Source: Candidatus Falkowbacteria bacterium CG1_02_37_21
GTDB lineage: Bacteria > Patescibacteriota > Patescibacteriia > Patescibacteriales > UBA12465
Direction of reading: 5' to 3'
NCBI GenBank assembly: GCA_001871165.1
Contig: MNUT01000024.1
Span: 1-57,827, forward strand
Length of the DNA stretch: 57,827 nucleotides
The position numbers were made by a program, and so were the translations under genes. Position 1 is the stretch's first letter. The number at the start of each line of letters is the position of its first letter. A model generated the notes under the pieces. The model saw nothing but the letters and a program-made list of their open reading frames with translations. It was not told the DNA's origin and made no database searches. Of the stretch, positions 10,781 through 49,914 are shown one piece after another.

Positions 10781-10782
10781 AA

Positions 10783-34384: not shown

Positions 34385-34604
34385 GAGAAAAACAGGAGAA
34401 AGTTTTGAAAGTTTTCTTCGTAAGTTTAAGAAGGGGCTGAAAAACAGTAAACGCTTGGAAAAAGCTCGTGCCAGTCAGCATCGCGGTACTAAAGTTACTA
34501 AGCATTTGCAAAAGAAACACGCCCTCATTGGTTTAAGTTTACGTAAAAAGAATGAATTTTTACGTCGCACCGGTAAATTACCGGAGAGCAACATGCAACG
34601 CTAA
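34371..34604 (+). CDS. rpsU: Probable 30S ribosomal protein bS21
   Basis: 77 aa and basic. ESFESFLRKFKKGLKNSKRLEKAR resembles the S21 core (E.F..ALRRFKR). The ATG at 34371 is preceded by SD AAAGGAGAG (34354-34362). The track's TTG at 34332 is rejected. Confidence 0.6.
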   Translation: MADFKRKTGESFESFLRKFKKGLKNSKRLEKARASQHRGTKVTKHLQKKHALIGLSLRKKNEFLRRTGKLPESNMQR

Positions 34605-36148: not shown

Positions 36149-36186
36149 AGACTTGCCAATACGCCTTTTTTATTTTTTTATTTTTA

Positions 36187-36195
36187 TGTTATAAT
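36187..36195 (+). promoter_or_regulatory. Extended -10 element (TGTTATAAT) upstream of the giant-protein locus
   Basis: Exact TGnTATAAT, 50 nt upstream of the ATG at 36245, in a divergent intergenic region. Confidence 0.45.
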
Positions 36196-36244
36196 AATTT
36201 ATATTATAGTATAAAAAGGGCAGTTTTAAAAGTTTAGTTTTTTA

Positions 36245-38950
36245 ATGATGAAGAAAAAAATAAAGCCTTGTATTTTATTTTTCGGTTTATCTGGTTTGAT
36301 TATTTCCGGTTTTTTTATTTTACTCATGTCGCCTTCTATCGCTTTCGCTCAAGATTTTGGTATAGATAAGGTATCTAATGCTTTAAATGGTTCTCTTTCT
36401 GTTGCCGCCGACCCACGCCTGATTGTCGGTCGTCTAATTCAAATTGCTTTGAGTTTTTTAGGCGTTATTGCGATTGTGTTAATAATGTATGCCGGATTTA
36501 TTTGGACTACTTCCGGCGGTGAAGAAGAAAAAATAGATAGTGCTAAAAAAATTCTGCGTAATGCTATTATTGGTTTGGCGATTATTATTTCGTCTTGGGC
36601 AATTGCTACTTATGTTTTGACCAGTTTAATGGCGGCGATTGGTGGCGGCGGTGGTGCTAATATTCCTGCCAATAATAATATTAGAATTAGCTCCGGTGCG
36701 GCAGCTTTAGGATCTTGTACAGTTGATACTCTTTATCCGAGTAATGGCGCTAAAGAAATACCGCGTAACACCTCATTGATGGTGACTTTTAAAGAGGATG
36801 TAAATTTGGATGGTCTTTGTGTTAATGATGCTGGGGTGTCTTGTACCTGTAATAACACGACTTGTCGTCAGATTAATCCGGAAGCGGTACAAATTTATAA
36901 GAGTGATTTAGGAAATGCCTGTGCGACTACTTGCCCCAGCCCTAATAGTAATACACTTGATGTTTCATTAAATTTGTCTAATGATCATAAAACTTTGATT
37001 TTAACACCATTAAGTCCTTTGGGATCCTCTGATGATAACACAGACTATTCGGTACGTTTAACAAATAAAGTGAAGAAGATAGACGGTTCCTCAATGTTTA
37101 AAAATTGTGGGTCAGATTTTCTTTATTGGTCTTTTGCCGTCAGTAATCGCTTAGATTTAACTCCACCGGAAGTACTCTTGCAGGGTATCTTTCCTTTACC
37201 TGATAATGAGGGGGATATATCTGGTGTAATGACGCCGGCTTCGTCGGCTGAGGGAGAAATATTGGTTAATAATTGTCCGACAATATATTCTGCGGCCAGT
37301 GTTATAAATATTGCGCCAAATACGGCGACAGTTATTTTAGATTATCATGGTAGTATCCCCCAATTTAAAATAAGTGTTCCGTCTGACGTACCGGACAAAG
37401 CACAACTTTTTGATAATGATGGTAATCTTTTGGGTGTTTCTGATTTTGATTCTGATGGCCAAATAATTTTTAAGACTTACCTTACCTTAACTGCCGTTAG
37501 TCATCCAGCCGGAAGCTCATGGACCGTTAATATTAATCCTGAACAATTAGCTGATACTCTTACAGTTGGTAGTGAGATTTATACATTTGCGAGGTCCATG
37601 GCCAATAATAATATTTTTGTACCAGGAACTTGTAATATTGTTCAGCAAGCCGTTAATATTCGTGCTAAATTAAGTGGTAGTGACGTAGTAGATGTTAGTC
37701 GGACGGGCAATCAGGTGCATTTAATAGCTAAAGTAGCCGGTGTGGCCGGTAATAATATTGTTGTGACCACTACAAACCCTGCCGCTCTAGCCATTACGTC
37801 TTTAGGCGGCGGGACTGATCGGTCTGAGTTTAAGCAGGCCCAGGATAAACCCGATCGTCCGATGAATTCCGTTATTCAAATTAATTTTAGTGAACCGATT
37901 AATCCGGTTACGATTTCCGGATCGGCTGCGGAAGTGGCTGACTATATTCGCGTAGTTAATGCCAGTGCCTCTAGTACTCCGGCAGGAGCGGTTTGCAGTG
38001 AGGACAAACAATGTTTGTCTTATAAATGTGAAGGTGGTGTTTGTCGGGGCGATTACTTGGCTGGTAAATTTATAGTCAGTAACGCCTATAAAACTTTAGA
38101 ATTTATTTCCGATAAAGAATGTGGCGTTAATGGTTGTGGTGAACAAATCTATTGTTTGCCCCCTAATAGTCATTTAAAACTAAATTTGGTGGCGGCTAAT
38201 TTAAAATCTTGTGACAGCGATACTGACTGTTTATCCAACAGTCCTTATACGCAGTGTTTGAATACGACTTTGGGTTATAAAACTTGTCAAAATCCCTTGG
38301 GCCAAAATTATCCAACGGCTAATTTGAGTAATTTGGATGGTATTGTGGACGCGGCGGCTAATTCCTTTGACGGTGATCGTAGCCAGACGGCGGAAGGACC
38401 TCTGGGTTTTTATAATGATAATTACCCGACCGCTACTAGCACCGTGACTCGTGACAAATATCAGTGGTCTTTTTACATTGGTGATAAGATTAATTTAACT
38501 TCACCTAAGATTACGTCTATTAGCCCTCTACCATCTAGTTTGAATGTTGGCGTATTGACACCGGTGGAAGTTACTTTTAATACCTTAATGCTAAATAGTA
38601 GTCTTCGTACCGGACAAGTAACCGTAAAAAGTGGTGACTCTACGGTTAAGCATAAATTAATTAATTTGCGAAGCTCTGTTCCTTCGCCTTTGGGTTATTG
38701 GGTGGAAAGTGACAATAAAGATGTGATGCCTTTAGACGGAGAGCCGGATATTACTGTCGCTAAAATTTCTCATACTCCTTTTAGTGAGTCCGTCACTTTA
38801 ATTTCTCAGATTGGTTCTGGCGTAAAAGATATTTATCAAAATTGTTATAAGCCTAGCGCCGGTCCGGATTGTAATTCCACCGCCGGACAACCATCTTGTT
38901 GTTTTGGTAGTCCCACCGCCACGTTAGGGGCAGACGGTAATTGTCAATAA
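36245..38950 (+). CDS. Giant surface protein A: signal peptide + VirB2/TrbC-like two-TM pilin hairpin + Gly linker + Ig-like (Big_5/SbsA-like) and Cys-rich extracellular domains
   Basis: 901 aa. The signal peptide ends AFA/QD. TM1 IALSFLGVIAIVLIMYAGFIW, loop TSGGEEEKIDSAKKILRNA, TM2 IIGLAIIISSWAIATYVL, then GGGGG. Three P.NG...V.VTF-type Ig-like segments and many Cys. Confidence 0.8.
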   Translation: MMKKKIKPCILFFGLSGLIISGFFILLMSPSIAFAQDFGIDKVSNALNGSLSVAADPRLIVGRLIQIALSFLGVIAIVLIMYAGFIWTTSGGEEEKIDSAKKILRNAIIGLAIIISSWAIATYVLTSLMAAIGGGGGANIPANNNIRISSGAAALGSCTVDTLYPSNGAKEIPRNTSLMVTFKEDVNLDGLCVNDAGVSCTCNNTTCRQINPEAVQIYKSDLGNACATTCPSPNSNTLDVSLNLSNDHKTLILTPLSPLGSSDDNTDYSVRLTNKVKKIDGSSMFKNCGSDFLYWSFAVSNRLDLTPPEVLLQGIFPLPDNEGDISGVMTPASSAEGEILVNNCPTIYSAASVINIAPNTATVILDYHGSIPQFKISVPSDVPDKAQLFDNDGNLLGVSDFDSDGQIIFKTYLTLTAVSHPAGSSWTVNINPEQLADTLTVGSEIYTFARSMANNNIFVPGTCNIVQQAVNIRAKLSGSDVVDVSRTGNQVHLIAKVAGVAGNNIVVTTTNPAALAITSLGGGTDRSEFKQAQDKPDRPMNSVIQINFSEPINPVTISGSAAEVADYIRVVNASASSTPAGAVCSEDKQCLSYKCEGGVCRGDYLAGKFIVSNAYKTLEFISDKECGVNGCGEQIYCLPPNSHLKLNLVAANLKSCDSDTDCLSNSPYTQCLNTTLGYKTCQNPLGQNYPTANLSNLDGIVDAAANSFDGDRSQTAEGPLGFYNDNYPTATSTVTRDKYQWSFYIGDKINLTSPKITSISPLPSSLNVGVLTPVEVTFNTLMLNSSLRTGQVTVKSGDSTVKHKLINLRSSVPSPLGYWVESDNKDVMPLDGEPDITVAKISHTPFSESVTLISQIGSGVKDIYQNCYKPSAGPDCNSTAGQPSCCFGSPTATLGADGNCQ

Positions 38951-38952
38951 TT

Positions 38953-41900
38953 ATGATGAAAAAAATTGGACGACAACTAGTTGGTGTTTTCATTCTCCTG
39001 GGCGTTTTCTTGTTCGCGCAATTTACTTTTGCTCAGGGCTTTGGCATAAATGAAGTCTCCAACGGCCTGAATGGATCTTTGGCTACTGCCGATCCGCGAG
39101 AGTTGGCGGTACGTATTATCAATATCGCCTTAGGTTTTCTGGGAATTATTGCTGTCTCCTTAACACTTTATGCTGGATATCTTTGGATGAGCTCAGCCGG
39201 CGATGAAGAAAAAATTGAAGATGCCAAGAAAATTTTACGTAACGCTGTTATCGGATTGGTAATTATTTTATCATCTTGGGCTATTGCCACTTTTTTAATT
39301 ACAAAACTGGGAGGAGCGATTGGCCCTAACACCGGCGGTTGTTTTGAAGGACAAATTTCTTCTTGTGGTTGTGGTGGTTCCATGGTTTGCACTGGCGGTT
39401 CTTTCGGTGCTTGTGTCGGCTCGGATTGCAGCGGCGGAGGAATTACGCCTTCCAGTTGCGACGGCAGTGCTAATCCTGGTTGTCAGGCAACAAGCCAAAT
39501 TTGTTCTACGGACGATTATTGCGATGCTGATAGCTGCGCTTGTAAGCCTAAGGGTTCCTTAGGAGATTCTTGTGATACCGATACGACTAACGCCACTTGT
39601 GATGCTGACAACAATCTCTGTTCCGAATATTTATCTTGCAGTGCCGATAGTTGTACTTGCGTCGGTCAGCCGGTTATTACCGGACTCAGTCCGGTGGGCG
39701 GTTTTTGTACTGAAGATCTAAATAAATCTTGTGTTACTGATGATGATTGTGCGGAAGTATGTGATCTGACGACGCCAAACGGTGCGACTGATAATTTTGT
39801 GACAATTTTAGGTAAGAACTTTGGTGAATATTCTGCTACTTCCAGTAAAGTAGTCTTTAGCGGAGCAGATCACACCCTCTTGACTAGTGTTGATGGTCGT
39901 CAACCGAACTCTTTAAATATTGCCTGCATTAATACTTGGCGAGACAACCAAATTGTTATTGCTATTCCCAGCGGTGCCGACTACGGTCCTTTGGCAGTGG
40001 TTAATCAAGATGGACAATCTGACACGACTAATAATGACTATGGTCCGGCCTTAGAAGATTTTCAAAAAAATAATATTACACGACCCGGTTTATGTTATCT
40101 TAATCCTCAGGCCGGAGTTTTAAGTTCTCAAGTTGCTTATCAGGGTATTAATCTTTATTCTAGTGAGGCTTACTTTGGTAATTATCAAACTAATGTCGCA
40201 GCACTAGACTCGCAGTTTATTAATAGTGCCGGCTTAACGGGGACTTCCACCATTCCGAATATTAAATCGGGAAATTCTGGCAGTTTTGTTCAGAATATTT
40301 CTAACGGTCAACCGGAAAAAAGTAATTATTTACTTTTCACTAAACAATCAGAACCCGGCTCCGGCCCTTTTATTTCCAGTTTTTACCCCACCGCCGGTGT
40401 CGCCGGACAATACGTTACTATTAGAGGTAAGGGCTTTGGTGGCGCGCGTGGTTTAAATCATGTTTATTTTGGTAGTTTAGAAGCGGCTTATGATTTTCCC
40501 GATGTATGTTTAAATTCGGTTTGGAAAGATGATCAGATTATTGTTAAAGTCCCGACTGGTTTGAGTAACGGTTATCAAGCGATTCAAGTGAAAATTGGTA
40601 TTACTACGATTGATACGCAAGAATTAAACCCCAATACTTTTCAAACGGATGATAGTTTAGCGCTTAAGTCTAGTTTATGTAAAATTGATCCAGAACGAGG
40701 TCCGCCCGCTACGCCGGTAACTTTGTGGGGAGAATATTTCGGTGGTGTTAATAGTGAAGGTTTAGTTAAATTTAATTTAGAAAAAATTGCCACCGGTACT
40801 ATTAAAAGAAGCGGACAAGCCGATATGATAGAAACCGCTGTGCCGGTTGGAGCTGTATCTGGCCCGGTTAAGGTTGTTAATAATAGTACTTCGGGAAATG
40901 AACTTAATTTTAATGTCGGGCAATGTAAAGTGGATGCCGATTGTGGGGATCAGGTTTGTTGCCCGGTTAATACTTATAAAGAAGGGCGTTGTGTTAATAC
41001 CATAACCGACTGTATATCCGACATTCCGACCTCTGTCTTTGAATGGAAATTTAGTACCGGTTTTGGTACTTGTGTCGGTCCGAATTGTGATGATCCTTGT
41101 AGAGATTTTACTACCGCGGAAGAATGCAGTCAGCAAACGGCTTGTTGTTTTGATTCCAAGGCAACAGATGATTTAACAGATGATTCTTGTCGTTCCGGTA
41201 GTGCAATTAGTTCCGGTGCCGATCAGGGTTATTGCGCTTATTATAATTGTGATGCCGTGAATATTACGCAATGTGCCACTTCTACTCCTTTAAAAATTGG
41301 TTCTTATTTTGGTCAGGCTGATTGTATTACGGAATGTGTTAAAGATGATCCTTGTTCTTCTTTGACTAGTGTAGCTACTTGTCGGCAAAATAGTCGCTGC
41401 TGTTTTGATGCCAATAAAACTATTGATGCCGCTGACGATGTTTGTAGTTTAGGCGACGCGATTAGTTCCGGCGCTGACCAGGGTTATTGCGCTTATTATG
41501 ACTGTGATGCTGTTGATACTACTTTATGTGCTACTTCCACTCCTATCAAAGTTGGTACTTATAGTAGTATAAGTTCTTGTGATCGTTCATGTTGGACTCC
41601 TCCCAGTGGAGCCGGATTGTCATGCGCCGGCGCTACTGTTAGTTCTACGTGTGATACTACTGTCTGTAATTATCTTGGTTTAAGTTGTCTTACGTCTGAC
41701 GGCAGCTTTAATGCTACCGGTCCGGACTGTGGTACTTGTTGCTGTCAGCCGGGAACGATTGATGAGTTAACCGGTTGGAAATGTTTGGCTGATAAAGGAA
41801 ATTGTGATGGAGTTAATCGTGGTTTATTCTGCGGCTGCTCTAGCGATGATGAATGCGGAGCCAAGGAAACTACCGGTTGTGGCGTTGATACTTGTTGTAC

Positions 41901-43923
41901 GGCGCGACCAGAAATAACCGCTACTAACCCGCCTCATTTGGCCGATCAGGTTTGTCGTAATGCCGTGATTCAAGCTACTTTTAACGAAGCCATGAGTGCG
42001 GCTAGTTTTGATAATAATGTTTTGCTCCTGGAGGAAAGAAATTATGGTAACGGAGTTTGTCCGGCCGGCTCTTTTGTCGCGCAAGCTAATTCGGTAGTTG
42101 ATATTTTAGAACAAAAAAATAAAAATTGGTTAGCGAAACTTTGGGATAATTTGTTCGTTCTTGTTACAGGTTGGGGTGAGCGTTGGAACACTCGCGCCTT
42201 GGCGGGTGTGCCTGACCCTAATAAACTTTACTGTTCTGTCGCCGGAACTGTTTCTGTTGAAAATAAAACAAATAGTGCTATTTTGAGTTTTGCGCCGCAA
42301 CGTTTGTTATCTTCCGCTGCTAATTACTACTTTGTTATTAAAGGTGATGAAGCCTTAAATAGTAAGACGGGAGTCTTGAGTGCGCAGGCTGTTGGCTTCA
42401 ACGGTTTAGGTTATCTTGACCCCGCCACTAATGCTTATGTGGAAGGTAATTTAATTCAATTAAATAGTGTTAATTACATAAATTCGCATATTATTAAATT
42501 TACTACCTTATCGGAACAAAGTGGTAATTCCGGTATTTGTAATATTGATGAGGTAAAAGTTAGTCCGGAGTCTTATCTGTTTAAGACTACAGCCAATGAT
42601 TTAAACGAAAAAGATGATCGAGTCAATAATATTACTTTTGACACTGTCTCTGATCGTGATAAAGTTTTTACTGCTAACGCTTACAGTGATGATGGACAAA
42701 TTTTACAACCGGTAGCTGGTTATACTTGGGATTGGGATTTTCAGGTAGCGGACCCTGGTATTGTTAGCCTAGGTTCGGCGATTAGTTTACCAAATAATAA
42801 AATGTTAGTGACGGCTACTACCGGACAGACAGACGCCTTAACTAAAGTTACGGCCACTATCAATATGGATAGGTTTATCAGCCCCGTGTGTCTTAATAAT
42901 TGTAATGTTTATACTGGTGGTGATGGTTTTAATAAGGCGGCCGATATTTATGTATTTTTATGTAATAATCCTTGGCCGCCGGTAGCTGCTAACGGCACTT
43001 GGTCGCCGTGGTCTGATACTTGTCAAAATGCTTTGGGTAATAATTGTGTTAATTATAATTATAAGTTTTATTATTGTCGTGATGCCGGTGCGAGTGGCAC
43101 CTTAGATGATTTGCCGGCGATTATTAATGAAGCGATTATCCGCGGTGTCAGTTCTAATTTAATTTGTAGTACCGATCGTTCCAGTTGTTCTACAGCTAAT
43201 AATCCTTGTGGGCAGGATGAAAATGGTGATGGCATTGGTGACGGTTTATGTTTATGGAATGTGTTGAAAGAATCTTATTTCTTTCGTGAAAAAATACTTT
43301 CCGGCGGTGAGCTGTTAAGTGCTACTAGCCTGAGTACAGGTAATACCGTTCAGGTTAATTGGCGTTCTAAGGCTGATCAAGTAGCTTCTTATAAAATTTA
43401 CTATTTGATGTCTGATCAGGGCACCATGTTATCTAAGACAGTAAAAGCTAGTGATGCTTGTAGCGTGGCTGGCGATGTTAATACCTGTCAGACCGTTATT
43501 GATGGTTTAACTAATAAACAGGCCTATATTTTTAAAGTTAGTGTCATCTCTGTTAATGGCACAGAAAGTCAATTATCTAATGAATTAACAGCGACTCCGA
43601 TTGACAGAATAAGACCGGCCACTCCGCTTAACTTTCGAGCGGTGGCCAGTACCTCTGCTTTAAAGTTTACGTGGTCGGCTAATACCGAAGAGGCCGTAAC
43701 GTCTCGCCTTTATCACGGTATTAAATCCGGTTTTTATGGAGAATCATTTGATTCCGTACTTAGTGGAACTAGTTTAAGTTTTCCGATTAGCCAGTTTGCT
43801 ACCAGTAGTCCTCATTATTTTATTTTGTCGGCTTTAGACGCGAGTGATAATGAAAGTGCTAAATCGGCAGAATGGAAATGTTTGAATGGCGTTTGTTCAA
43901 TAGTTATTGTTGTTCAACAATAG
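38953..43923 (+). CDS. Giant surface protein B: signal peptide + paralogous VirB2/TrbC-like hairpin + Cys-rich modules + IPT/TIG-like repeats + tandem 85-aa Cys repeats + C-terminal FN3-like domains
   Basis: About 1656 aa from the ATG at 38953, 2 nt after the upstream stop; the track's TTG at 38941 is rejected. The N-terminus is nearly colinear with protein A. TIG-like: PVITGLSP..TILGKNFG and PFISSFYPTAGVAGQYVTIRGKGFG. FN3-like C-terminus. Confidence 0.8.
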   Translation: MMKKIGRQLVGVFILLGVFLFAQFTFAQGFGINEVSNGLNGSLATADPRELAVRIINIALGFLGIIAVSLTLYAGYLWMSSAGDEEKIEDAKKILRNAVIGLVIILSSWAIATFLITKLGGAIGPNTGGCFEGQISSCGCGGSMVCTGGSFGACVGSDCSGGGITPSSCDGSANPGCQATSQICSTDDYCDADSCACKPKGSLGDSCDTDTTNATCDADNNLCSEYLSCSADSCTCVGQPVITGLSPVGGFCTEDLNKSCVTDDDCAEVCDLTTPNGATDNFVTILGKNFGEYSATSSKVVFSGADHTLLTSVDGRQPNSLNIACINTWRDNQIVIAIPSGADYGPLAVVNQDGQSDTTNNDYGPALEDFQKNNITRPGLCYLNPQAGVLSSQVAYQGINLYSSEAYFGNYQTNVAALDSQFINSAGLTGTSTIPNIKSGNSGSFVQNISNGQPEKSNYLLFTKQSEPGSGPFISSFYPTAGVAGQYVTIRGKGFGGARGLNHVYFGSLEAAYDFPDVCLNSVWKDDQIIVKVPTGLSNGYQAIQVKIGITTIDTQELNPNTFQTDDSLALKSSLCKIDPERGPPATPVTLWGEYFGGVNSEGLVKFNLEKIATGTIKRSGQADMIETAVPVGAVSGPVKVVNNSTSGNELNFNVGQCKVDADCGDQVCCPVNTYKEGRCVNTITDCISDIPTSVFEWKFSTGFGTCVGPNCDDPCRDFTTAEECSQQTACCFDSKATDDLTDDSCRSGSAISSGADQGYCAYYNCDAVNITQCATSTPLKIGSYFGQADCITECVKDDPCSSLTSVATCRQNSRCCFDANKTIDAADDVCSLGDAISSGADQGYCAYYDCDAVDTTLCATSTPIKVGTYSSISSCDRSCWTPPSGAGLSCAGATVSSTCDTTVCNYLGLSCLTSDGSFNATGPDCGTCCCQPGTIDELTGWKCLADKGNCDGVNRGLFCGCSSDDECGAKETTGCGVDTCCTARPEITATNPPHLADQVCRNAVIQATFNEAMSAASFDNNVLLLEERNYGNGVCPAGSFVAQANSVVDILEQKNKNWLAKLWDNLFVLVTGWGERWNTRALAGVPDPNKLYCSVAGTVSVENKTNSAILSFAPQRLLSSAANYYFVIKGDEALNSKTGVLSAQAVGFNGLGYLDPATNAYVEGNLIQLNSVNYINSHIIKFTTLSEQSGNSGICNIDEVKVSPESYLFKTTANDLNEKDDRVNNITFDTVSDRDKVFTANAYSDDGQILQPVAGYTWDWDFQVADPGIVSLGSAISLPNNKMLVTATTGQTDALTKVTATINMDRFISPVCLNNCNVYTGGDGFNKAADIYVFLCNNPWPPVAANGTWSPWSDTCQNALGNNCVNYNYKFYYCRDAGASGTLDDLPAIINEAIIRGVSSNLICSTDRSSCSTANNPCGQDENGDGIGDGLCLWNVLKESYFFREKILSGGELLSATSLSTGNTVQVNWRSKADQVASYKIYYLMSDQGTMLSKTVKASDACSVAGDVNTCQTVIDGLTNKQAYIFKVSVISVNGTESQLSNELTATPIDRIRPATPLNFRAVASTSALKFTWSANTEEAVTSRLYHGIKSGFYGESFDSVLSGTSLSFPISQFATSSPHYFILSALDASDNESAKSAEWKCLNGVCSIVIVVQQ
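41092..41601 (+). repeat. Tandem in-frame 255-nt (85-aa) Cys-rich coding repeat, 2 copies
   Basis: DPCRDFTTAEECSQQTACCFDS...SSGADQGYCAYYNCDAVNITQCATSTPLKIGSY aligns with DPCSSLTSVATCRQNSRCCFDA...SSGADQGYCAYYDCDAVDTTLCATSTPIKVGTY. The copies start at 41092 and 41347. Confidence 0.85.
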
Positions 43924-43946
43924 CATTAGCATTTATATAAATATCT

Positions 43947-46900
43947 ATGCATATGAAAGGCATTAAAAAAATAGCCATGATGATGGGATTGATTTTAGTT
44001 TTGTCATTTCTGGTTGTCGCCCATAACTCTGATGCTCAAGACAACAGCCCGGATGCTATTGCCATCCGCATTATCCCTAATCCCAATCATTATAGTATCA
44101 GTCGTTGGTATACCAGTCAGAATTTTACCGGTTCACCGCAAGCTCTGACGGTTGATGGTTATGAGGCTATTCGTGACGGTCGGACTGTTTATGTTAATGC
44201 CGCTAATATTGATCCAACTTCTCGCACCATTTATACTAATATTTATTTGATTTCTTATAATCAAGAGTCTGAAGCAAAAACGGTTGATATTCTCGGTCAA
44301 ATTATTTCTCACTGGAAGTTTAATGATAATATTATAGAGAATAATAGTCCCGCCCCCAGTTGTTCTATTTCTTCTTTGAATTGTAAATCCGACAGTGATT
44401 GCGGTAGCGGTCAGAGTTGTGCTTTAGCCGGACCTTTAGCGGGGTCTTGCGTATTAAATAATTTAAAAAATTGTAGTGCTGATTCTGATTGTCCGGCTAA
44501 TTTTTTCTGCGATGGCTTGAAGGCTAAAATAACACGTGATATTAAGCGTGTCGGACGCTTAGAGGAAATAAGAGGGGCTCTTTATAATTTTAAGCAAACA
44601 AATAAACGATACCCGACTTTACTGGCTGGAACTTATTTAACGAATAATAGCTTGTCGGTCTGGCCCAGCTGGAAGCAAGTGTTATTGTCGGATTTAGCTG
44701 TTAGTAATAGTTTTGTTGACCCGATTAATAAGTTGGGTAAATGCGTAATTGATCTGGTCGTTAAAAATGGTCGCGATTATAGTGCTACCACTGCTGCTTG
44801 TAATTTAAATAGTGGTGTCACTACCGCTTCTTGCAATAATGCTACCTGGGATTATAATTTTCAGATGAATGGTGGTGATTATCGTTTATGGGTAGAGACT
44901 GCTAATAATAACACTGGCGGGATATATGGTGATTTAAGCTCAGCCCCAGCTCTATTTGCTTTCGGAGAAAATTTTTGTCCCGAGCCGGGCATTCAACATC
45001 ATCTTCTAGTTTATGTAGATAATGTTTTAAAAGGGTCAGCTTGTAATCCGGCTGTTAATCCCAATGAGTCACGGCAAACAGCTTATGTTGACTTAGGGCA
45101 TTTAGATGCTGGTAGCCATTCTGTTAGGATTAAATGGGATAATGATTGGCAATATAATCCCGATGGTGTTTGGGGTAATGCTGATGACGCTGATTCTAAT
45201 CTTAAAATTTATCGTTTAGGTTTAACTACTTCTGATTCTTTTGATATAGAAACTTGTTGGGATCAAAATTCTAAAAGTTTTGCTTATAGTTCTGTTAACG
45301 GTCCTTTAACCTTACCGCCCGATAGTTATGCTTTTGCCTACGTTAGTGATTCAGAAGGCTCTGATTATAGTCTGTGTGCCACTTTAGAAAGTCGTAGTCC
45401 AAGTTTAGCTTATTCTTTTGGACCTTTTGATTTAGCAGATTCGGCTTGTGCTTTTGCTTCGGGAGTGAGTGTTGGCGGGCAAGCAGGTAATTCCGCCCCT
45501 TCAATAGTTAGTCAATCTTTAGGGGCTGAAGCTCATCAGCCCTTTAATGGTTATATTCAAGCGACGGATGCCGAAGGAGATTTATTGACTTGGTCAATTT
45601 TAAATTCTAGTCCCGGGACCTGGTCAAGTTGGCAGAGCCCGAGTGGTCAGAACCAGCCTCCGGTCTTGCAAGATACCAGTAATCCTTATCAGAAAAAAGT
45701 TTATGCTCCATTTGCCGGTGATCCTGGTACTTATAGTCTTAGATTATCCATTAACGATGGTCAAGGGGGCATTTTAAGCACCACCACCCCAATTACTATT
45801 ATTTCTCCGTCCATTTCCTTGAGCGCCGAGAACACGGAGTACGCTTTAGATTCGGGTTCATCTTTTAGTTATGTTATTTCCTTTGCCAGTAATAGTCTTA
45901 ACAATCCTAGCACAGCTTATAGCGTCCAAAAAACAGCGGGCCCCCTTGATATTTTAGCCGGATTAACGAAAAGTTTTATTAATTTGGGTAATGGTCAATA
46001 TCAAGTTAAATATGACGGGGATATCTCTCCTGCTACGGTTAATAACGATACAGTTTTTGCTTATAAGTTTAGTGTTACTGACAGTTATAATAAAACAGCC
46101 ACTAAAAATTTTAATGTTACTCTAAAAGTGGCTAGTGTTCCTAGTTTAAATTTTTCTTGTGTTGATATGATACGCGTTGGAGAACAATATAGTTGTATTT
46201 TAGGTCCGACTATGCAAGGGGAATCTGAGATTAATTATGTAGCGAGTGGTTTACCGAACGGCTTAAGTCAAGATTTAGGTGTTATCACCGGGGCGCCAAA
46301 TTCTTCCGCTCCCGGTATTTATACCGTGAACGTGACGGCTGCTAATAGTTTTGGTGCAGTTATCACTAAGTCATTTTCATTAAAAGTAAATAATTTTTGT
46401 GGTGATGGTATTAGACAACAACCTAATACCGAGGGACGGGGTGGCCCAGCTAATAATGGTCAAGAGAGTTGCGACGGCAGTAGCGGGGTAACAACTAGCC
46501 CTACCGCCAGTAGAGTTAATTTGCAATACGCTTGTAATAGCAGTCTTTGCATTTATAAATCTCCTATTAATGGTGGCGGTTATTGCGGTGACGGCTATTG
46601 TCAGCTGAGAATTAATGGCCAAGATGTAGAGAATCATAGTAATTGTTCAGTGGATTGTGATGCGGCGTCTTTACCCTGCACACCTTCTTGCGTCGGTAAG
46701 TGTTTCGGTGCCAGTGATGGCTGTACTGGCACTTGTCCTGATAATGGAGCTAATAGTGCCTGTACAAGTGGTGAGTCTATTTTTTGTTCTGACTTAGTAG
46801 GCCCGGGATATGCTGGCAGCGCTCTTTGTAAGAGTGATTGTTCTGGTTTTGATATTAATAGCTGTGGCGCTTGTAACCCTTCTTGTACTGGTGTATGTGC

Positions 46901-47357
46901 CGGCGCTGATAACGGTTGTGGTGTAGCTTGTCCATCTACGGCTACTAACACTTTTTGTACTAGTAGTTATTCGGAAGATTGTTCTACTTATTTAAATTGG
47001 CCACCGGAAAGTTTTAGCGGTAATGTGGTTTGTAATAGTTCTTGTTCCGCTTATGATACTTCCGGTTGTGATGCCTCAGGATCATATTGGTACCAGGTAC
47101 CGGCGTCGGAAGATAGATATTTAACTGTAGGCACTGATTGTATGGTGAGGCTAAACGTTGATGCTAATAATAATATTGAATGTATTATGAAGGATAATCC
47201 TAATAGTTCGTCTCAGTGGTTTCAGGGCGTCATCGCTATTAGTGTAAATACAAAAATTTGCGCCGTACCGGGTTGCGCTACAGCAGTGAACACTACTAAA
47301 TGTAGGTATTTTAGTGGCGTTTGGACCAACCACTGTTTCGTTCATAAAACTTGGTAA
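43947..47357 (+). CDS. Giant secreted Cys-rich protein C with an internal pilin-headgroup-like segment, cadherin-like/He_PIG-like Ig domains and C-terminal Cys-repeat modules
   Basis: 1136 aa. Signal peptide MHMKGIKKIAMMMGLILVLSFLVVAHNSDA/QD. ITRDIKRVGRLEEIRGALYNFKQTNKRYP is pilin-like. SAPSIVSQSLGAEAHQPFNGYIQATDAEGDLLTWSI and GLPNGLSQDLGVITGAP are Ig-like. Confidence 0.8.
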   Translation: MHMKGIKKIAMMMGLILVLSFLVVAHNSDAQDNSPDAIAIRIIPNPNHYSISRWYTSQNFTGSPQALTVDGYEAIRDGRTVYVNAANIDPTSRTIYTNIYLISYNQESEAKTVDILGQIISHWKFNDNIIENNSPAPSCSISSLNCKSDSDCGSGQSCALAGPLAGSCVLNNLKNCSADSDCPANFFCDGLKAKITRDIKRVGRLEEIRGALYNFKQTNKRYPTLLAGTYLTNNSLSVWPSWKQVLLSDLAVSNSFVDPINKLGKCVIDLVVKNGRDYSATTAACNLNSGVTTASCNNATWDYNFQMNGGDYRLWVETANNNTGGIYGDLSSAPALFAFGENFCPEPGIQHHLLVYVDNVLKGSACNPAVNPNESRQTAYVDLGHLDAGSHSVRIKWDNDWQYNPDGVWGNADDADSNLKIYRLGLTTSDSFDIETCWDQNSKSFAYSSVNGPLTLPPDSYAFAYVSDSEGSDYSLCATLESRSPSLAYSFGPFDLADSACAFASGVSVGGQAGNSAPSIVSQSLGAEAHQPFNGYIQATDAEGDLLTWSILNSSPGTWSSWQSPSGQNQPPVLQDTSNPYQKKVYAPFAGDPGTYSLRLSINDGQGGILSTTTPITIISPSISLSAENTEYALDSGSSFSYVISFASNSLNNPSTAYSVQKTAGPLDILAGLTKSFINLGNGQYQVKYDGDISPATVNNDTVFAYKFSVTDSYNKTATKNFNVTLKVASVPSLNFSCVDMIRVGEQYSCILGPTMQGESEINYVASGLPNGLSQDLGVITGAPNSSAPGIYTVNVTAANSFGAVITKSFSLKVNNFCGDGIRQQPNTEGRGGPANNGQESCDGSSGVTTSPTASRVNLQYACNSSLCIYKSPINGGGYCGDGYCQLRINGQDVENHSNCSVDCDAASLPCTPSCVGKCFGASDGCTGTCPDNGANSACTSGESIFCSDLVGPGYAGSALCKSDCSGFDINSCGACNPSCTGVCAGADNGCGVACPSTATNTFCTSSYSEDCSTYLNWPPESFSGNVVCNSSCSAYDTSGCDASGSYWYQVPASEDRYLTVGTDCMVRLNVDANNNIECIMKDNPNSSSQWFQGVIAISVNTKICAVPGCATAVNTTKCRYFSGVWTNHCFVHKTW
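46677..47066 (+). repeat. Tandem in-frame 195-nt (65-aa) Cys-rich coding repeat, 2 copies
   Basis: CTPSCVGKCFGASDGCTGTCPDNGANSACTS...CSGFDINSCGA aligns with CNPSCTGVCAGADNGCGVACPSTATNTFCTS...CSAYDTSGCDA. Confidence 0.7.
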
Positions 47358-47371
47358 TAATTATTATATTT

Positions 47372-47698
47372 ATGAATAAAAAAAATCAAAAAATTATAAC
47401 AATTGCTGTCTTGACTCTAATTTTAATTATTACTATCGTTCTGGTGCTTCGTCTAAAAAACGATCCAGCTACTTCTGACGGCACAGCAGGAATTATTACC
47501 TCCACTACGCCCCAGTTTCTTAGTGAGCAAGAGAAGCTTGATATGGGGATTAACACTAAAGATCAAGTTCAAATCTTTCGTGATGCTAGCGGTGATAATA
47601 TTGTTTATAAAATTATTAGAACAAAAGATGATATTGTTTCTGACCCGGCCACAGTGACCGCTATTAACCCTCCGCAAAAATTGCCGATAAATGAATAA
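47372..47698 (+). CDS. Small single-pass membrane protein
   Basis: 108 aa from the ATG at 47372 (MNKKNQK); the track's TTG at 47351 overlaps the upstream gene. One TM helix: IITIAVLTLILIITIVLVL. Confidence 0.6.
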   Translation: MNKKNQKIITIAVLTLILIITIVLVLRLKNDPATSDGTAGIITSTTPQFLSEQEKLDMGINTKDQVQIFRDASGDNIVYKIIRTKDDIVSDPATVTAINPPQKLPINE

Positions 47699-47749
47699 TC
47701 AGCTATAATTAAAATATTAATAATTAATAGACAATAAAAAGATAATTAT

Positions 47750-48490
47750 ATGTTTAATGATTTAAATAATAATAAGCCAAATAATCCTCCGGTTGATGAT
47801 ATTTTTGCTGAAACCGATAAGACTTCCTCAGCTCCGCTCGGCGCTACTTCAGATATTTCTGCACAAAAAGTTGGTTTGGATGCGGAAGAAAATTTACCGA
47901 CTAGTGAGGCAGAGGAGACTCCAGCTTCTGGTGGTGATAAATGGTTTAAAATAACTATCATAGTAATTATTGTTTTAATTTTAGCTTTGGGCGCCTACTT
48001 ACTTTATAGGAAATTTGTACCAATGCCGTCCGCTGAAGTTGCCATGACGACTGATAATACTATAATCCCGGCTGATAATACAGCGACAGATATTCCCAAT
48101 GACCTGGCGCCTGAAGTTCCTATTGAAAATACCGATATAAATCAGGACGCTATAAATACCGATTTAAATAATGCTGACGTTATTGATCAGATTGATAATA
48201 CTATTGACCCAAATAACGATATTCCTACCTCTACCGTACCGGTAGTCCCAGTTGACTCTGATTCTGACGGCTTGACTGATGCGGAAGAAGCCGTAGTTGG
48301 TACCAACCCCTTAATAGCTGATACGGATAGCGATGAATTAGGGGACTATGAAGAAGTAAAAATTTATCAGACCAATCCTCTAAATCCGGATACGGACGGT
48401 GATGGTTATTCCGATGGTGCGGAAGTTAAGTCGGGCTATAATCCTAATGGTCCGGGAAAATTATCCGACCTTGAACAGCCGGTGCAATAA
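47750..48490 (+). CDS. Single-pass membrane protein with thrombospondin-type-3-like Ca-binding repeats
   Basis: 246 aa. Acidic N-terminal tail, TM helix WFKITIIVIIVLILALGAYLLY, D/N-rich region, then DSDSDGLTDAEE, DTDSDELGDYEE and DTDGDGYSDGAE. Confidence 0.75.
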   Translation: MFNDLNNNKPNNPPVDDIFAETDKTSSAPLGATSDISAQKVGLDAEENLPTSEAEETPASGGDKWFKITIIVIIVLILALGAYLLYRKFVPMPSAEVAMTTDNTIIPADNTATDIPNDLAPEVPIENTDINQDAINTDLNNADVIDQIDNTIDPNNDIPTSTVPVVPVDSDSDGLTDAEEAVVGTNPLIADTDSDELGDYEEVKIYQTNPLNPDTDGDGYSDGAEVKSGYNPNGPGKLSDLEQPVQ

Positions 48491-48493
48491 TTT

Positions 48494-48685
48494 ATGTTAG
48501 ATGATAATTTTAACAAAAAACAAGTACCTCGGCCGCGGACGATCCCCTCTAAAATTAAACAGCATCTTTCCTTAAATCTTCATATTATGCCTCAAACTGG
48601 AAGTAGCCATTTTCAAAAATGGTTATTTTTAGCTTTTCTGCTCTTTGCTCTATTGGTTATAATGGCAATTTTGATTTTTTGGTAA
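48494..48685 (+). CDS. Small C-terminally anchored membrane protein
   Basis: 63 aa. Basic N-terminus and C-terminal TM helix WLFLAFLLFALLVIMAILIFW. It starts 3 nt after the upstream stop. Confidence 0.5.
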   Translation: MLDDNFNKKQVPRPRTIPSKIKQHLSLNLHIMPQTGSSHFQKWLFLAFLLFALLVIMAILIFW

Positions 48686-48706
48686 TAGTTTATTCTTGAT
48701 TACTTT

Positions 48707-49816
48707 ATGTTTAATAGTCAGAAAAAAAATAAATCAGATTCTACGGTTAATGATAATATTACCGCGGCTGTTAATCAGGATTTAATTATTCATAATATGC
48801 CTCGGGGGGTTCGATTAAGTGGAACCATTGCTCGTGGCGTGAATACTCCAGCTTTTCATGGCATTGAGTCAGATAACTCATCATTCTCTCAGTCGTCTGT
48901 CTCTAATAATTCTGTATCGCCGACAGGCACTTTAAACGAAAAATCTCCAGCAAATTTTAAAATTGTAGGCTGGTTGATTATGATGGGAGGTCTTATTTTT
49001 ATTGGAATATTAGTATATTTATCTTATATTTTTATTATTAAACCAGTAGCCTCTATTCCGGCAGAAGATGCTAATATTATTGTTCCCGATATTTCTGTAG
49101 ATGATACTGGTGAGAACATAGCAACTAGTGCTGACCCCATAATGGATATAATCAGTACCACTACGGATTTGAATCAGGATATTTCTCTGGAGGGCTCAAC
49201 CAGTACGGAAGTCGTTGCTACCGGAACCGAACCGATTATGGACATTGCCCCGCTCTTACCGATTTTACTTGACAGCGACGGCGACGGTCTGAGTGATCAA
49301 GAGGAATTAGTTTTTGGTACCTCCGCTACCTCGGCAGACTCCGACAACGATACTTATTCCGATAGTATGGAGATTAGTGGTGGTTATAATCCGATTGGCA
49401 CTGGGTTTCTGATTGATAACGACAAACTCCAGTTAAATTCTTATAGTGGTGATGGTTTTAGATATTCCATATTATCTCCTAAAGATTGGACGATTCAGGA
49501 TTCAGCTAATGGCACTACAATATTTTTTATTGCCCCTGATGAATCTTTTATCCAAGTTGTAGTAACGCCTAATTATAATAAAGCTAGTATTTTAAACTGG
49601 TATAGCGAATCTTTCCCCGGACAGTCTTTGACTTATAATGATGTTAAGACGACTGCGACTTGGGAAGGTACCCAGAGTTCGGATGGGAAAAATGTTTATT
49701 TGACTGATAATCGTTATGATAATGTTTTAGTTATTTCTTATATACCGGTTATTAGTGATCAGGTTCTTTATCCTGCCGTTTTTCAAATGATGATAAATTC
49801 TTTGATTCTGGAATAA
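48707..49816 (+). CDS. Single-pass membrane protein with TSP3-like repeats and a C-terminal globular domain
   Basis: 369 aa with the same architecture as 47750..48490, including the MFN start. TM helix FKIVGWLIMMGGLIFIGILVYLSYIFII. Repeats DSDGDGLSDQEE and DSDNDTYSDSME, followed by a C-terminal beta-rich domain of about 130 aa. Confidence 0.75.
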   Translation: MFNSQKKNKSDSTVNDNITAAVNQDLIIHNMPRGVRLSGTIARGVNTPAFHGIESDNSSFSQSSVSNNSVSPTGTLNEKSPANFKIVGWLIMMGGLIFIGILVYLSYIFIIKPVASIPAEDANIIVPDISVDDTGENIATSADPIMDIISTTTDLNQDISLEGSTSTEVVATGTEPIMDIAPLLPILLDSDGDGLSDQEELVFGTSATSADSDNDTYSDSMEISGGYNPIGTGFLIDNDKLQLNSYSGDGFRYSILSPKDWTIQDSANGTTIFFIAPDESFIQVVVTPNYNKASILNWYSESFPGQSLTYNDVKTTATWEGTQSSDGKNVYLTDNRYDNVLVISYIPVISDQVLYPAVFQMMINSLILE

Positions 49817-49858
49817 CTCCGCGTTTATTATTATGCTGGGATTAGATTATTTAATAGC

Positions 49859-49886
49859 AAAAACTCCCTATAACAGGGAGTTTTTT
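49859..49886. terminator. Bidirectional intrinsic terminator closing the surface-protein locus and clpP
   Basis: The stem ctccct/agggag has a 5-nt loop, an A5 run upstream and a T6 run downstream. Confidence 0.75.
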
Positions 49887-49914
49887 ATCAAAATAATTTT
49901 TTGTTAGTGGTGAT

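What the first reader, a model, noticed from the sequence alone, without database searches (positions are those of the whole stretch)
36245..39324. VirB2/TrbC-like pilin hairpin serving as the N-terminal module of two adjacent giant adhesin-like proteins
- The first ~135 aa of protein A and ~124 aa of protein B are nearly colinear:
  - signal peptide ending (A/T)FA-Q(D/G)FGI(D/N)(K/E)VSN(A/G)LNGSL;
  - DPR;
  - TM1 ending YAG(F/Y)(I/L)W;
  - charged loop G(E/D)EEKI(D/E)(S/D)AKKILRNA;
  - TM2 IGL(A/V)II(I/L)SSWAIAT.
- A cleaved signal peptide followed by two helices joined by a short charged loop is the architecture of conjugative VirB2/TrbC pilins. I recall it as the T4SS-pilin family common as ~100-130 aa proteins in CPR and Gram-positive bacteria.
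- Here the module continues, via a Gly-rich linker, into 770-aa and 1530-aa extracellular regions.
- That implies either a pilin-like membrane anchor for adhesins or a minor-pilin-style tip subunit that displays a huge cargo.
Basis: partly seen in the sequence, partly recalled or inferred. Interest (0 to 1): 0.7.

Follow-up and report, generated by a model that had tools for sequence, protein, structure and literature searches.

The report
Pilin-rooted giant surface proteins
Two neighbouring genes of an uncultured ultra-small (Patescibacteria/Falkowbacteria-type) bacterium each fuse a complete conjugation-type (VirB2-like) pilin to a huge Ig-like outer region, a conserved design that may be how these cells display attachment fibres.

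Summary
Protein A (36245-38950, 901 aa) and protein B (38953-43923, 1656 aa) start with modules that are 60% identical (E 9e-45). Their outer regions show no similarity.

Both modules pass Pfam's threshold for T4SS_pilin (PF18895). They align end to end with free 120-135 aa pilins of Patescibacteria. They link weakly but in register to true VirB2/TrbC (Pfam E 1.6e-3 for B; hhalign 86.5%).

The fusion is not an artefact:
- A-type proteins occur in at least 207 species-level genomes, with a very narrow length range.
- B-type proteins occur in at least 400 clusters.
- The order RelA | A | B | C holds in 73 of 80 loci, always among housekeeping genes and never beside a T4SS.

In A orthologs the hairpin is the best-conserved part (0.64-0.72 against 0.50-0.62 for the outer domains). 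In other lineages B is fused to the downstream secreted protein C.

My best reading is that these are modular VirB2-type pilins. The pilin module packs with free pilins and displays Ig-like fibres outside the cell. Whether it stays in the membrane or rides a pilus is not resolved.

This is a new variant of known kinds. I found no description of it in the literature I could search.

The parts
36245..36349 (+). Protein A signal peptide (residues 1-35, ends IAFA|Q)
   Evidence: Basic n-region MMKKKIK, a hydrophobic core and A-F-A before Q36. It aligns with the AxA|Q site of free pilins and of VirB2. It is poorly conserved among orthologs, with mean pairwise identity 0.30.
36350..36637 (+). Protein A mature pilin module (residues 36-131): outer N-segment with the DPR motif, helix 1, charged loop, helix 2
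   Evidence: PF18895 at 32.7-36.7 bits, cut-off 26.6. The AF2 model gives helices 57-88 and 94-131 with pLDDT about 80. It is the most conserved part of A: 0.72, 0.64 and 0.66 for helix 1, loop and helix 2.
36638..36709 (+). Protein A Gly-rich flexible linker (residues 132-155)
   Evidence: pLDDT is below 50 for residues 130-149. Conservation is 0.31. Free pilins end exactly here.
36710..38950 (+). Protein A outer region: all-beta string of Ig-like domains (two Big_5), Cys-rich, conserved C-terminal CCFG...C motif
   Evidence: Big_5 E 2.2e-12. The AF2 model has pLDDT about 90. The best Foldseek matches are the S-layer proteins SbsC, EA1 and Sap. The 120 listed orthologs are 816-930 aa, median 896.
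38953..39036 (+). Protein B signal peptide (residues 1-28, ends FTFA|Q)
39037..39318 (+). Protein B mature pilin module (residues 29-122)
   Evidence: PF18895 at 38.5-42.6 bits. TrbC/VirB2 PF04956 at E 1.6e-3 over profile positions 2-97 of 98. NCBIfam NF045849 at 36.5 bits, cut-off 40. The AF2 hairpin model has pLDDT 85-95.
39319..43923 (+). Protein B linker and outer region: Cys-rich modules, TIG, Big_5, fn3
   Evidence: Pfam. At least 400 related clusters; the 120 listed are 1508-2318 aa and nearly all carry PF18895 plus TIG, Big_5 or both. The N-terminal 700 aa are better conserved than the distal part, 57-58% against 47%.
43947..47357 (+). Protein C: secreted 1136-aa protein (signal peptide, He_PIG, Cys-rich), probable distal partner of B
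   Evidence: Conserved directly after B in 61 of 80 loci. In P0435, P0454, P0467, P0468 and P0481 the mature N-terminus of C (residues ~32-330) is fused directly behind the B-like region.
47372..47698 (+). Protein D: small single-pass membrane protein, starts 14 nt after C
   Evidence: Sequence. Found after C in 22 of 80 loci by tblastn. A 103-aa gene sits at the same place in L006.
47750..49816 (+). Proteins E (47750-48490) and F (48707-49816): N-terminally anchored proteins with bacterial TSP3 calcium-binding repeats, co-conserved downstream
   Evidence: TSP3_bac E 8e-16. Present downstream in 41 (E) and 24 (F) of 80 loci.

Best explanation
A and B are modular VirB2-type pilins. Each is a complete T4SS-pilin module with a large functional region grafted onto its C-terminus.

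Steps read from the sequence:
1. Sec export takes place and signal peptidase I cleaves at AxA|Q.
2. The mature module inserts as a helical hairpin. The short N-segment and the C-terminus lie outside and the charged loop lies in the cytoplasm.
3. A flexible Gly-rich linker leads into 770 aa (A) or 1530 aa (B) of Ig-like, TIG, fn3 and Cys-rich domains that project from the surface of this single-membrane cell.

Steps that are inferred:
1. The hairpin is more conserved than the folded outer domains. It keeps every invariant residue of the free pilins. Its outer N-segment is shared only with one particular free pilin of the same genome.
2. I therefore take it to be more than a passive anchor. It most likely packs with free pilin hairpins and is handled by the same machinery, the VirB4-type T4SS encoded elsewhere in such genomes.
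3. A few fused subunits would then be built into the pilin assembly, most plausibly at its start, which becomes the tip, because a bulky cargo on every subunit could not pack.
4. B forms a stalk that carries the separately secreted protein C at its far end.
5. The fibres serve contact with other cells or surfaces.
For: **Module identity**
- PF18895 is above its cut-off in both proteins.
- The module is 45-68% identical over about 120 aa to free pilins, best E 3e-33.
- The alignment is gap-free through both helices and the loop, and free pilins end where the linker begins.
- TrbC/VirB2 links: Pfam E 1.6e-3 for B and 17 of 26 relatives matched; hhalign 86.5%, E 4.6e-6, with the A|Q site in register.

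**Real and conserved**
- At least 171 A-type and at least 400 B-type clusters.
- 207 species-level genomes.
- RelA-A-B order in 73 of 80 loci.

**Hairpin under its own constraint**
- Mean pairwise identity is 0.72, 0.64 and 0.66 for helix 1, loop and helix 2. It is 0.30 for the signal peptide, 0.31 for the linker and 0.50-0.62 for the outer domains.
- The A and B modules are 60-74% identical although their cargos are unrelated.

**Partner pilins and a machine are available**
- One complete chromosome holds A, B and seven free pilins. The first pilin of the six-gene array is 57-62% identical to the A and B modules, but only 34-48% identical to its own array neighbours.
- The three A-bearing genomes I looked up in Table S1 of PMC12102498 are all VirB4-positive.

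**Outside location**
- Only the signal peptide and the hairpin are hydrophobic.
- The loop carries more K+R than the outer N-segment, 2.7 against 1.3.
- The outer regions hold Ig-like, TIG and fn3 domains with 27 (A) and 88 (B) cysteines.

**B-C link**
- Five giant relatives fuse B to C.

**Other anchors in the operon**
- D, E and F each have only a single hydrophobic stretch and no pilin module. A plain anchor is therefore in use in the same operon.
Against: - No T4SS gene lies in the 57.8-kb window or within 10 kb of A/B in any related locus. The neighbourhood is housekeeping.
- The free-pilin arrays of this lineage are also not next to VirB4.
- According to the papers read here (PMC12857230, PMC10633639), Patescibacteria T4SSs have only the potential to build pili; none has been shown. 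The name 'T4SS pilin' for PF18895 rests on prediction and on gene essentiality in one Saccharibacterium.
- The hairpin-only model gave no significant structural match to any solved pilin. No PDB relative was found by sequence.
- A has a nearly fixed length (5th-95th percentile 880-913 aa) and evolves slowly. Its best fold matches are S-layer proteins. These features fit a structural envelope protein as well as an adhesin.
- No binding function was tested.
Confidence: 0.45

Rival explanations
1. Passive anchor. The pilin-derived hairpin has been recruited only as a two-helix membrane root, perhaps self-associating. A, B and C would then be structural cell-envelope proteins, S-layer-like or wall-spanning. 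They would have no link to a T4SS or to any pilus.
For: - The genomic context is housekeeping and core-genome in all loci, with no T4SS neighbour.
- A has a narrow length range and evolves slowly.
- Foldseek's best matches are the S-layer proteins SbsC, EA1 and Sap.
- The PF18895 family is enormous (67,555 clusters at 50% identity), and in this lineage the free-pilin arrays examined lie away from VirB4.
Against: - A passive anchor is usually poorly conserved, yet here the hairpin is the best-conserved part of A.
- It keeps all family-invariant residues and the non-membrane N-segment motif shared with one free pilin.
- The operon's other membrane proteins manage with a single hydrophobic stretch and no pilin module.
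- The Foldseek TM-scores are only 0.11-0.13, which indicates generic strings of Ig domains.
Confidence: 0.35
2. Pro-protein. The pilin module and the large region are separated by proteolysis after export, as the C-terminus of RP4 TrbC is trimmed before cyclisation. This would release either a free pilin or a free secreted protein.
For: - A disordered Gly/Ala-rich linker follows helix 2.
- A signal peptidase I gene is conserved 3 kb upstream in 60 of 80 loci.
- C-terminal processing of TrbC and VirB2 is established, which I state from my own knowledge.
Against: - The linker is the least conserved part and has no conserved cleavage motif (consensus).
- The upstream peptidase sits in a housekeeping block and looks like the cell's general enzyme.
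- Natural polypeptides with 2-17 tandem modules show that covalent extension of the module is tolerated.
Confidence: 0.07
3. Artefact. The Pfam hit reflects hydrophobic composition only, or the fusions are gene-calling or assembly errors that join a small pilin gene to a downstream gene.
For: Weak hits to unrelated membrane families also appear (Srsx, MatE and cytochrome bd oxidase subunit II).
Against: - Identity to free pilins reaches 68% and includes polar motifs (DPR, G-x-EEK..AKK), best E 3e-33.
- The reading frames are uninterrupted in the window.
- The same architecture appears in hundreds of independent assemblies.
Confidence: 0.02

Closest known systems
Free VirB2-like pilins of Patescibacteria (Pfam PF18895 T4SS_pilin), such as the essential pilin array in the T4SS locus of Ca. 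Southlakia epibionticum (PMC10633639, PMC12102498)
   Same: The module is the same from end to end: signal peptide with AxA|Q, outer N-segment, two long helices and a charged loop. Identity is 45-68%. It occurs in the same phylum and even on the same chromosomes.
   Different: Those pilins are 110-145 aa and often lie in arrays, some beside virB4. A and B carry 770-1530 aa of extra outer domains. They sit in a conserved housekeeping neighbourhood and always occur as a fixed A-B pair followed by C.
Classical conjugative pilins VirB2 / TrbC / TraA (Pfam PF04956; T-pilus, RP4 and F pili)
   Same: The layout is shared: a long Sec signal peptide cleaved before Gln, then two hydrophobic helices joined by a short charged loop, with both ends outside the membrane. 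hhalign gives 86.5% with the cleavage site and helix 1 in register. From my own knowledge, the C-terminus is exposed on the outside of assembled F-type pili and tolerates peptide fusions.
   Different: PF04956 is below its cut-off for B and gives no hit for A. No virB3 or virB4 neighbours are present. The organism has a single membrane. Head-to-tail cyclisation, as in VirB2 and TrbC, is impossible with a C-terminal extension. No solved pilin was matched by fold.
Modular type IV pilins (PilB with vWA and PilC with a lectin module in Streptococcus sanguinis; CofB; PMC8179133)
   Same: The design principle is the same: a small N-terminal pilin module, a short linker and a bulky functional module displayed by the filament, probably at its tip. 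The giant relative P0454 carries Laminin_G_3 and VWA modules, the same kinds of module as PilC and PilB.
   Different: It is an unrelated pilin superfamily. Type IV pilins have a class III signal peptide cut by prepilin peptidase and a single N-terminal helix. A and B have a class I signal peptide and a hairpin.
T4SS adhesins: VirB5/CagL tip proteins of double-membrane bacteria; PrgB and thioester-domain adhesins of Gram-positive conjugation systems
   Same: A possible shared role is contact with the target cell. PMC12102498 reports that no PrgB-type adhesin was found in Patescibacteria, which leaves that role open.
   Different: There is no sequence relationship. A and B have no LPxTG sorting signal. 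They are not encoded in a T4SS operon, and their anchoring is by a pilin hairpin.
Mbov_0395 family pilin-like conjugal transfer proteins of Mycoplasma/Bacillota ICEs (NCBIfam NF045849)
   Same: B scores 36.5 bits and A 25 bits against this model, cut-off 40. A Pontibacillus member lies 4 kb upstream of a VirB4-like ATPase.
   Different: Both scores are below the cut-off. Those proteins are small and lie inside conjugation gene clusters.

Membership tests
Pfam PF18895 T4SS_pilin | Score above the family's gathering cut-off (26.6 bits) | tested here: met
   A scores 32.7 bits as the whole protein and 36.7 bits as the module alone. B scores 38.5 and 42.6 bits. All 26 members of alignment A2 match.
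Pfam PF18895 T4SS_pilin | Complete module colinear with free family members: signal peptide, outer N-segment, helix 1, loop, helix 2 | tested here: met
   In alignment A2, 11 columns are invariant across A, B and 24 free pilins, and the free pilins end at the start of the linker. phmmer E-values reach 3e-33.
Classical TrbC/VirB2 pilins (PF04956) | Score above the gathering cut-off (27.9 bits) | tested here: not met
   B module scores 19.1 bits, E 1.6e-3, over profile positions 2-97 of 98. A gives no hit at E <= 1. 17 of 26 relatives match at E <= 0.1, best 5.9e-6.
Classical TrbC/VirB2 pilins (PF04956) | Profile-profile homology to annotated VirB2/TrbC genes | tested here: inconclusive
   hhalign of A2 against six VirB2/TrbC genes that lie between virB1 and virB3 gives Prob 86.5%, E 4.6e-6. 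Only 50 columns align, covering the cleavage site, the DP motif and helix 1.
Classical TrbC/VirB2 pilins (PF04956) | Encoded within a T4SS gene cluster (next to virB3/virB4) | tested here: not met
   No T4SS gene lies in the window or in the annotated flanks of related loci, and the 80 related loci keep the same housekeeping gene order. VirB4 is present elsewhere in three A-bearing genomes, according to Table S1 of PMC12102498.
Classical TrbC/VirB2 pilins (PF04956) | Fold match to solved conjugative pilins | tested here: inconclusive
   The hairpin is predicted with confidence (pLDDT 85-95). Foldseek against the PDB gives nothing below E 2.4 and no pilin in the top 50. Simple helical hairpins are poorly discriminated by this method.
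Classical TrbC/VirB2 pilins (PF04956) | Polymerises into an extracellular pilus with bound phospholipid | not testable with these tools
   This needs cryo-EM or cryo-ET, or biochemistry.
Modular type IV pilins (type 4 filament superfamily) | Class III signal peptide (prepilin peptidase site, conserved Glu5) | tested here: not met
   No such motif occurs in the first 45 residues of A, B or C. The signal peptides are class I with AxA|Q.
Gram-positive wall-anchored conjugation adhesins (PrgB type) | C-terminal LPxTG sortase signal | tested here: not met
   No LPxTG-like motif in A, B or C.
S-layer proteins | Known anchoring module (SLH, CWB2) or sequence homology to a solved S-layer protein | tested here: not met
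   Pfam finds no SLH or CWB2 domain. There is no PDB sequence hit. The only link is a generic multi-Ig fold resemblance to SbsC, EA1 and Sap with TM-scores of 0.11-0.13.

The most novel reading that the evidence does not exclude
A and B would be the first modular pilins of a type IV secretion system. In this reading they are VirB2-type subunits that start, and therefore cap, a T4SS-built pilus in a single-membrane bacterium. They would take the place of the missing VirB5/PrgB adhesins. B would carry protein C at its tip, and together they would form the device by which Falkowbacteria-type cells attach to their hosts.
Probability: 0.3. Interest if true: 0.8.

Novelty: new variant of a known kind. 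Interest (0 to 1): 0.6.

Why it matters
Patescibacteria are thought to live attached to other microbes. Their T4SS and its VirB2-like pilins are essential in the one species tested, Ca. Southlakia epibionticum (PMC10633639). Yet no pilus from this system and no T4SS adhesin has been identified, and PMC12102498 reports that PrgB-type adhesins were not found.

A conserved pair of pilin-rooted giant surface proteins, present in more than 200 species-level genomes, is a concrete candidate for the missing contact device. [quoted passage not shown]

If the hairpin turns out to be only an anchor, the finding still defines a previously undescribed way of rooting envelope proteins in a single-membrane bacterium. 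It would also caution against counting every PF18895 hit as a T4SS pilin.

The B-C fusion gives a directly testable protein-protein interaction.

Tried and rejected
1. **Foldseek of the hairpin-only model against the PDB.** No significant hit was found. A helical hairpin is too simple for this method, so I treat the result as uninformative rather than negative.
2. **Sequence searches of the PDB.** I used the module profile, the A profile and B. All returned nothing.
3. **tblastn of the module against 72,556 plasmids.** Only weak hits came back. The single informative one was a Pontibacillus pilin-like gene near a VirB4-like ATPase.
4. **Promoter and terminator scan of 35900-50600.** Counts were close to those from shuffled sequence, and it gave no usable evidence on operon boundaries in this AT-rich DNA. 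I inferred the operon from the 2-, 23- and 14-nt gene spacings instead.
5. **Fetching R388 and RP4 by accession.** Neither is in the collection. I used a VirB2 sequence recalled from memory only as a tblastn probe. The comparison itself used the annotated database genes that the probe retrieved.
6. **Looking for T4SS genes next to divergent, B-less copies of A.** The context was again housekeeping.
7. **Two helper scripts failed on a parsing error.** I reran them, and succeeded.
8. **A third pilin module in the window.** None was found.
Full report
**What is there**

The finding spans gene A (36245-38950, + strand, 901 aa) and the start of gene B (38953-43923, 1656 aa). B's ATG lies 2 nt after A's stop. 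C (43947-47357, 1136 aa) follows B after 23 nt, and D (47372-47698) follows C after 14 nt. The four genes therefore look like one transcription unit.

The two N-termini are 60% identical over 115 aa (E 9e-45). The remaining 766 and 1530 residues show no similarity (best E 1.4). An HMM built from the two modules finds no further copy in any of the six frames of the window.

**What the module is**

- Both proteins pass the gathering cut-off of Pfam PF18895 (T4SS_pilin). A scores 32.7-36.7 bits and B 38.5-42.6 bits, against a cut-off of 26.6.
- A search of 5.8 billion proteins with B's first 126 residues returned 187 hits. The best 120 are nearly all free proteins of 110-145 aa carrying PF18895, from Patescibacteria (Falkowbacteria, Magasanikbacteria). 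They are 45-68% identical, with E-values down to 3e-33.
- In a joint alignment the fused and free forms are colinear from the signal peptide (AxA|Q) through the outer N-segment (G-x-N-x-V..GL...L...DPR), helix 1, the charged loop (G-N/D-EEK...AKK) and helix 2. The free pilins end exactly where the Gly-rich linker of A and B begins. A and B therefore contain a whole pilin, not a fragment.

The link to classical conjugative pilins is weaker but consistent:
- Pfam TrbC/VirB2 (PF04956) matches B's module at E 1.6e-3 (19.1 bits, cut-off 27.9) over profile positions 2-97 of 98. It matches 17 of the 26 aligned relatives, best E 5.9e-6.
- NCBIfam NF045849 (pilin-like conjugal transfer protein of Mycoplasma/Bacillota ICEs) scores 36.5 bits for B and 25 bits for A, below its cut-off of 40.
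- I retrieved six annotated VirB2/TrbC genes that lie between virB1 and virB3 on alphaproteobacterial plasmids. A profile-profile comparison with them gives 86.5% probability and E 4.6e-6. The A|Q site, a DP motif and helix 1 up to G-x-x-WM are in register.
- AlphaFold predicts the hairpin with confidence: pLDDT 85-95 in the module-only model and about 80 in full-length A.
- Foldseek found no significant match for the hairpin-only model. For so simple a shape I regard that test as uninformative.

**Topology**

- Hydropathy finds only the signal peptide and the two helices as hydrophobic segments.
- The signal peptide places the N-segment outside the cell. Helix 1 then runs inward and helix 2 outward.
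- Across 26 sequences the loop carries more K+R than the outer N-segment (2.7 against 1.3).
- The regions after helix 2 are Big_5, TIG and fn3 domains with 27 (A) and 88 (B) cysteines. The AlphaFold model of A shows an all-beta string of Ig-like domains with pLDDT about 90 behind a disordered linker.
- These features fit a large outer region. None of this was tested experimentally.

**The fusion is real, conserved and core**

- Full-length A finds at least 171 clusters. The best 120 are all 816-930 aa, 49-76% identical over essentially the full length, and all carry PF13205 plus PF18895. Their median length is 896 aa, with a 5th-95th percentile range of 880-913.
- Full-length B finds at least 400 clusters. 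The best 120 are 1508-2318 aa, and nearly all carry PF18895 plus TIG, Big_5 or both.
- A scan of one genome per species finds an A relative in 207 genomes. Eighty loci were fetched.
- In 73 of those 80 loci the order is RelA/SpoT (opposite strand) | A | B. C follows in 61. E, F and D were detected after it in 41, 24 and 22 loci. Upstream lie HisRS, signal peptidase I, RuvB and an AddA-like helicase.
- More divergent copies of A stand alone without B, again among housekeeping genes such as NusB, RNase III, RecA and MscL.
- Between the window and two distant relatives, housekeeping neighbours are 62-85% identical, A is 51-55% and B is 47-58%. These proteins are not hypervariable.
- The window itself is an ordinary chromosomal stretch of a small-genome bacterium. 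It holds tRNA synthetases, gyrase, SecDF, ClpP, FtsA and scattered type IV pilus genes, and no VirB4, VirB6 or coupling protein.

**How common the fusion is**

- A profile of the module, searched against 1.84 billion representatives, finds 67,555 clusters at E <= 1e-3 and 21,818 at E <= 1e-10.
- Among the best 150, 86 have a single module: 66 are 200 aa or shorter, 5 are 201-500 aa and 15 are longer than 500 aa (up to 3647 aa). The module is always at the N-terminus.
- Nineteen of the 20 single-module hits longer than 200 aa, and all those over 500 aa, carry an A-type or a B-type outer region. Near this query the fusion happened in two lineages of cargo, not many.
- This sample is biased towards the query profile. 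The rest of the family was not surveyed.
- The other 64 of the best 150 contain 2-17 tandem modules without internal signal peptides. This shows that the module tolerates covalent extension at both ends.

**Clues to mechanism**

1. **The hairpin is the best-conserved part of A.** Among 64 A orthologs the mean pairwise identity is 0.72 for helix 1, 0.64 for the loop and 0.66 for helix 2. It is 0.30 for the signal peptide, 0.31 for the linker and 0.50-0.62 for the folded outer domains. A passive anchor is not expected to be the best-conserved part of a protein.
2. **The module is kept while the cargo differs.** The A and B modules remain 60-74% identical although their cargos are unrelated.
3. 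**One free pilin resembles A and B.** One complete chromosome (OW818634.1) holds A and B (L028) and seven free pilins (L002). The first pilin of the six-gene array is 57-62% identical to the A and B modules and shares their outer N-segment. It is only 34-48% identical to its own array neighbours. I read this as a shared contact surface.
4. **A T4SS is present elsewhere in such genomes.** The three A-bearing genomes that I looked up in Table S1 of PMC12102498 are listed as class ABY1 with VirB4 present. One of them has VirB4 next to TrsD, plus coupling proteins, in Table S3.
5. **B and C are fused in other lineages.** In five giant relatives (2998-3647 aa) the B-like region runs straight into a region homologous to the mature N-terminus of C, residues about 32-330. 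This is a classic gene-fusion indication that B and C work as one fibre here. The far ends of those giants carry Laminin_G_3 plus VWA, BNR/sortilin propellers or DUF4215 repeats, all typical binding modules.
6. **A plain anchor is available in the same operon.** Downstream, D, E and F each have only a single hydrophobic stretch and no pilin module.

**Best explanation and its limits**

I conclude that A and B are modular VirB2-type pilins. The module identity is supported by direct sequence tests. The outside location is read from sequence features only.

The remaining steps are inferred. The hairpin packs with free pilins and is handled by the T4SS. A few fused subunits are then displayed, probably at the start, which becomes the tip, of the assembly. 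B carries C at its far end. The fibres mediate contact. I give the whole chain 0.45.

The main rival, at 0.35, is that the hairpin is only a membrane root for structural envelope proteins. In its favour:
- There is no T4SS neighbourhood in any locus.
- The free-pilin arrays of this lineage are also away from VirB4.
- A has a fixed length.
- The best fold matches are the S-layer proteins SbsC, EA1 and Sap, though with TM-scores of only 0.11-0.13, which indicates generic Ig strings.

Cleavage of the linker (0.07) has no conserved motif to support it. An artefact (0.02) is excluded by the number of independent assemblies.

**Comparison with what is known**

- VirB2-like pilins and their arrays in Patescibacteria are published (PMC10633639, PMC12102498, PMC12857230). 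Those papers treat them as small proteins.
- PMC12102498 states that no PrgB-type adhesin was found. Its Table S3 entry for one A-bearing genome lists a single VirB2 hit, so A and B do not appear to have been flagged there.
- Modular pilins, in which a functional module is grafted onto a pilin, are well described for type IV pili (PMC8179133). That is a different superfamily with a class III signal peptide, which A and B lack.
- My searches of the held literature found no description of VirB2-type pilins fused to large outer regions.
- The proteins are in public databases under generic names such as 'Ig-like domain-containing protein', 'IPT/TIG domain-containing protein' and 'pilin'.

I therefore rate this as a new variant of known kinds, of moderate to high interest. 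It offers a concrete, testable candidate for how these bacteria present contact structures. It also cautions that PF18895 hits are not all simple pilins.

Noticed in passing
database proteins P0361 (552 aa, 6 modules), P0378 (1775 aa, 17 modules), P0365 (245 aa, 2 modules): 64 of the best 150 representatives of the pilin family contain 2-17 tandem pilin modules in one polypeptide. The three examples I read have no internal signal peptides. They may be natural concatenated pilins, or in some cases stop-codon read-through from gene calling under the wrong genetic code.
   Followed up: partly
P0435, P0454, P0467, P0468, P0481 compared with window 38953-47357: In other lineages the B-type protein and the downstream secreted protein C are a single polypeptide of 3000-3650 aa. 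Pfam, run on three of them, finds Laminin_G_3 plus VWA, BNR/sortilin propeller or DUF4215 modules at or near the far end.
   Followed up: yes
L001/L002 5035-12529; L087 7656-12755; L089 5049-12493: Free-pilin arrays of 6-8 genes in Falkowbacteria-type genomes lie in a conserved setting without T4SS genes. A solute-binding protein (SBP_bac_1) with one further pilin gene directly after it lies just upstream of the array or a few genes away. No VirB4 lies within 10 kb.
   Followed up: partly
window 7769-11763 (- strand) and 55534-56295 (+): A 1003-aa protein holds two T2SSE-type ATPase regions plus an MshEN domain, next to a polytopic membrane ORF. A prepilin peptidase (A24) lies elsewhere in the window. 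These are scattered type IV pilus genes, unrelated to the VirB2-type modules.
   Followed up: no
window 571-1766 (- strand): A PemK/MazF-type toxin gene overlaps an HTH plus SocA/Panacea-domain antitoxin gene.
   Followed up: no
window 7177-7752 (- strand): A Translin-family protein (PF01997, E 2e-19) in a bacterial genome. As far as I know this family is mainly eukaryotic and archaeal.
   Followed up: no
window 24480-25799 and 53186-55525 (+): Two Wzy_C (O-antigen ligase-like) membrane proteins, the second with C-terminal TPR repeats.
   Followed up: no
window 47750-49816 (+): Two proteins with an acidic N-terminal part, one hydrophobic stretch and bacterial TSP3 calcium-binding repeats are co-conserved downstream of A-B-C-D in many loci. 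They may belong to the same surface structure.
   Followed up: partly
loci L009, L011, L013 and many others: Many metagenome-assembled genomes that carry the Falkowbacteria-type RelA-A-B-C block are titled 'uncultured Gammaproteobacteria bacterium' in their public records, and one is titled 'Bacillota'. These look like labelling errors.
   Followed up: no
window 34332-34604 (+): A small basic ORF (90 aa from TTG) lies between HisRS and RelA. A 75-77 aa gene sits at the same place in L004 and L006. It resembles ribosomal protein S21, but I did not test this.
   Followed up: no
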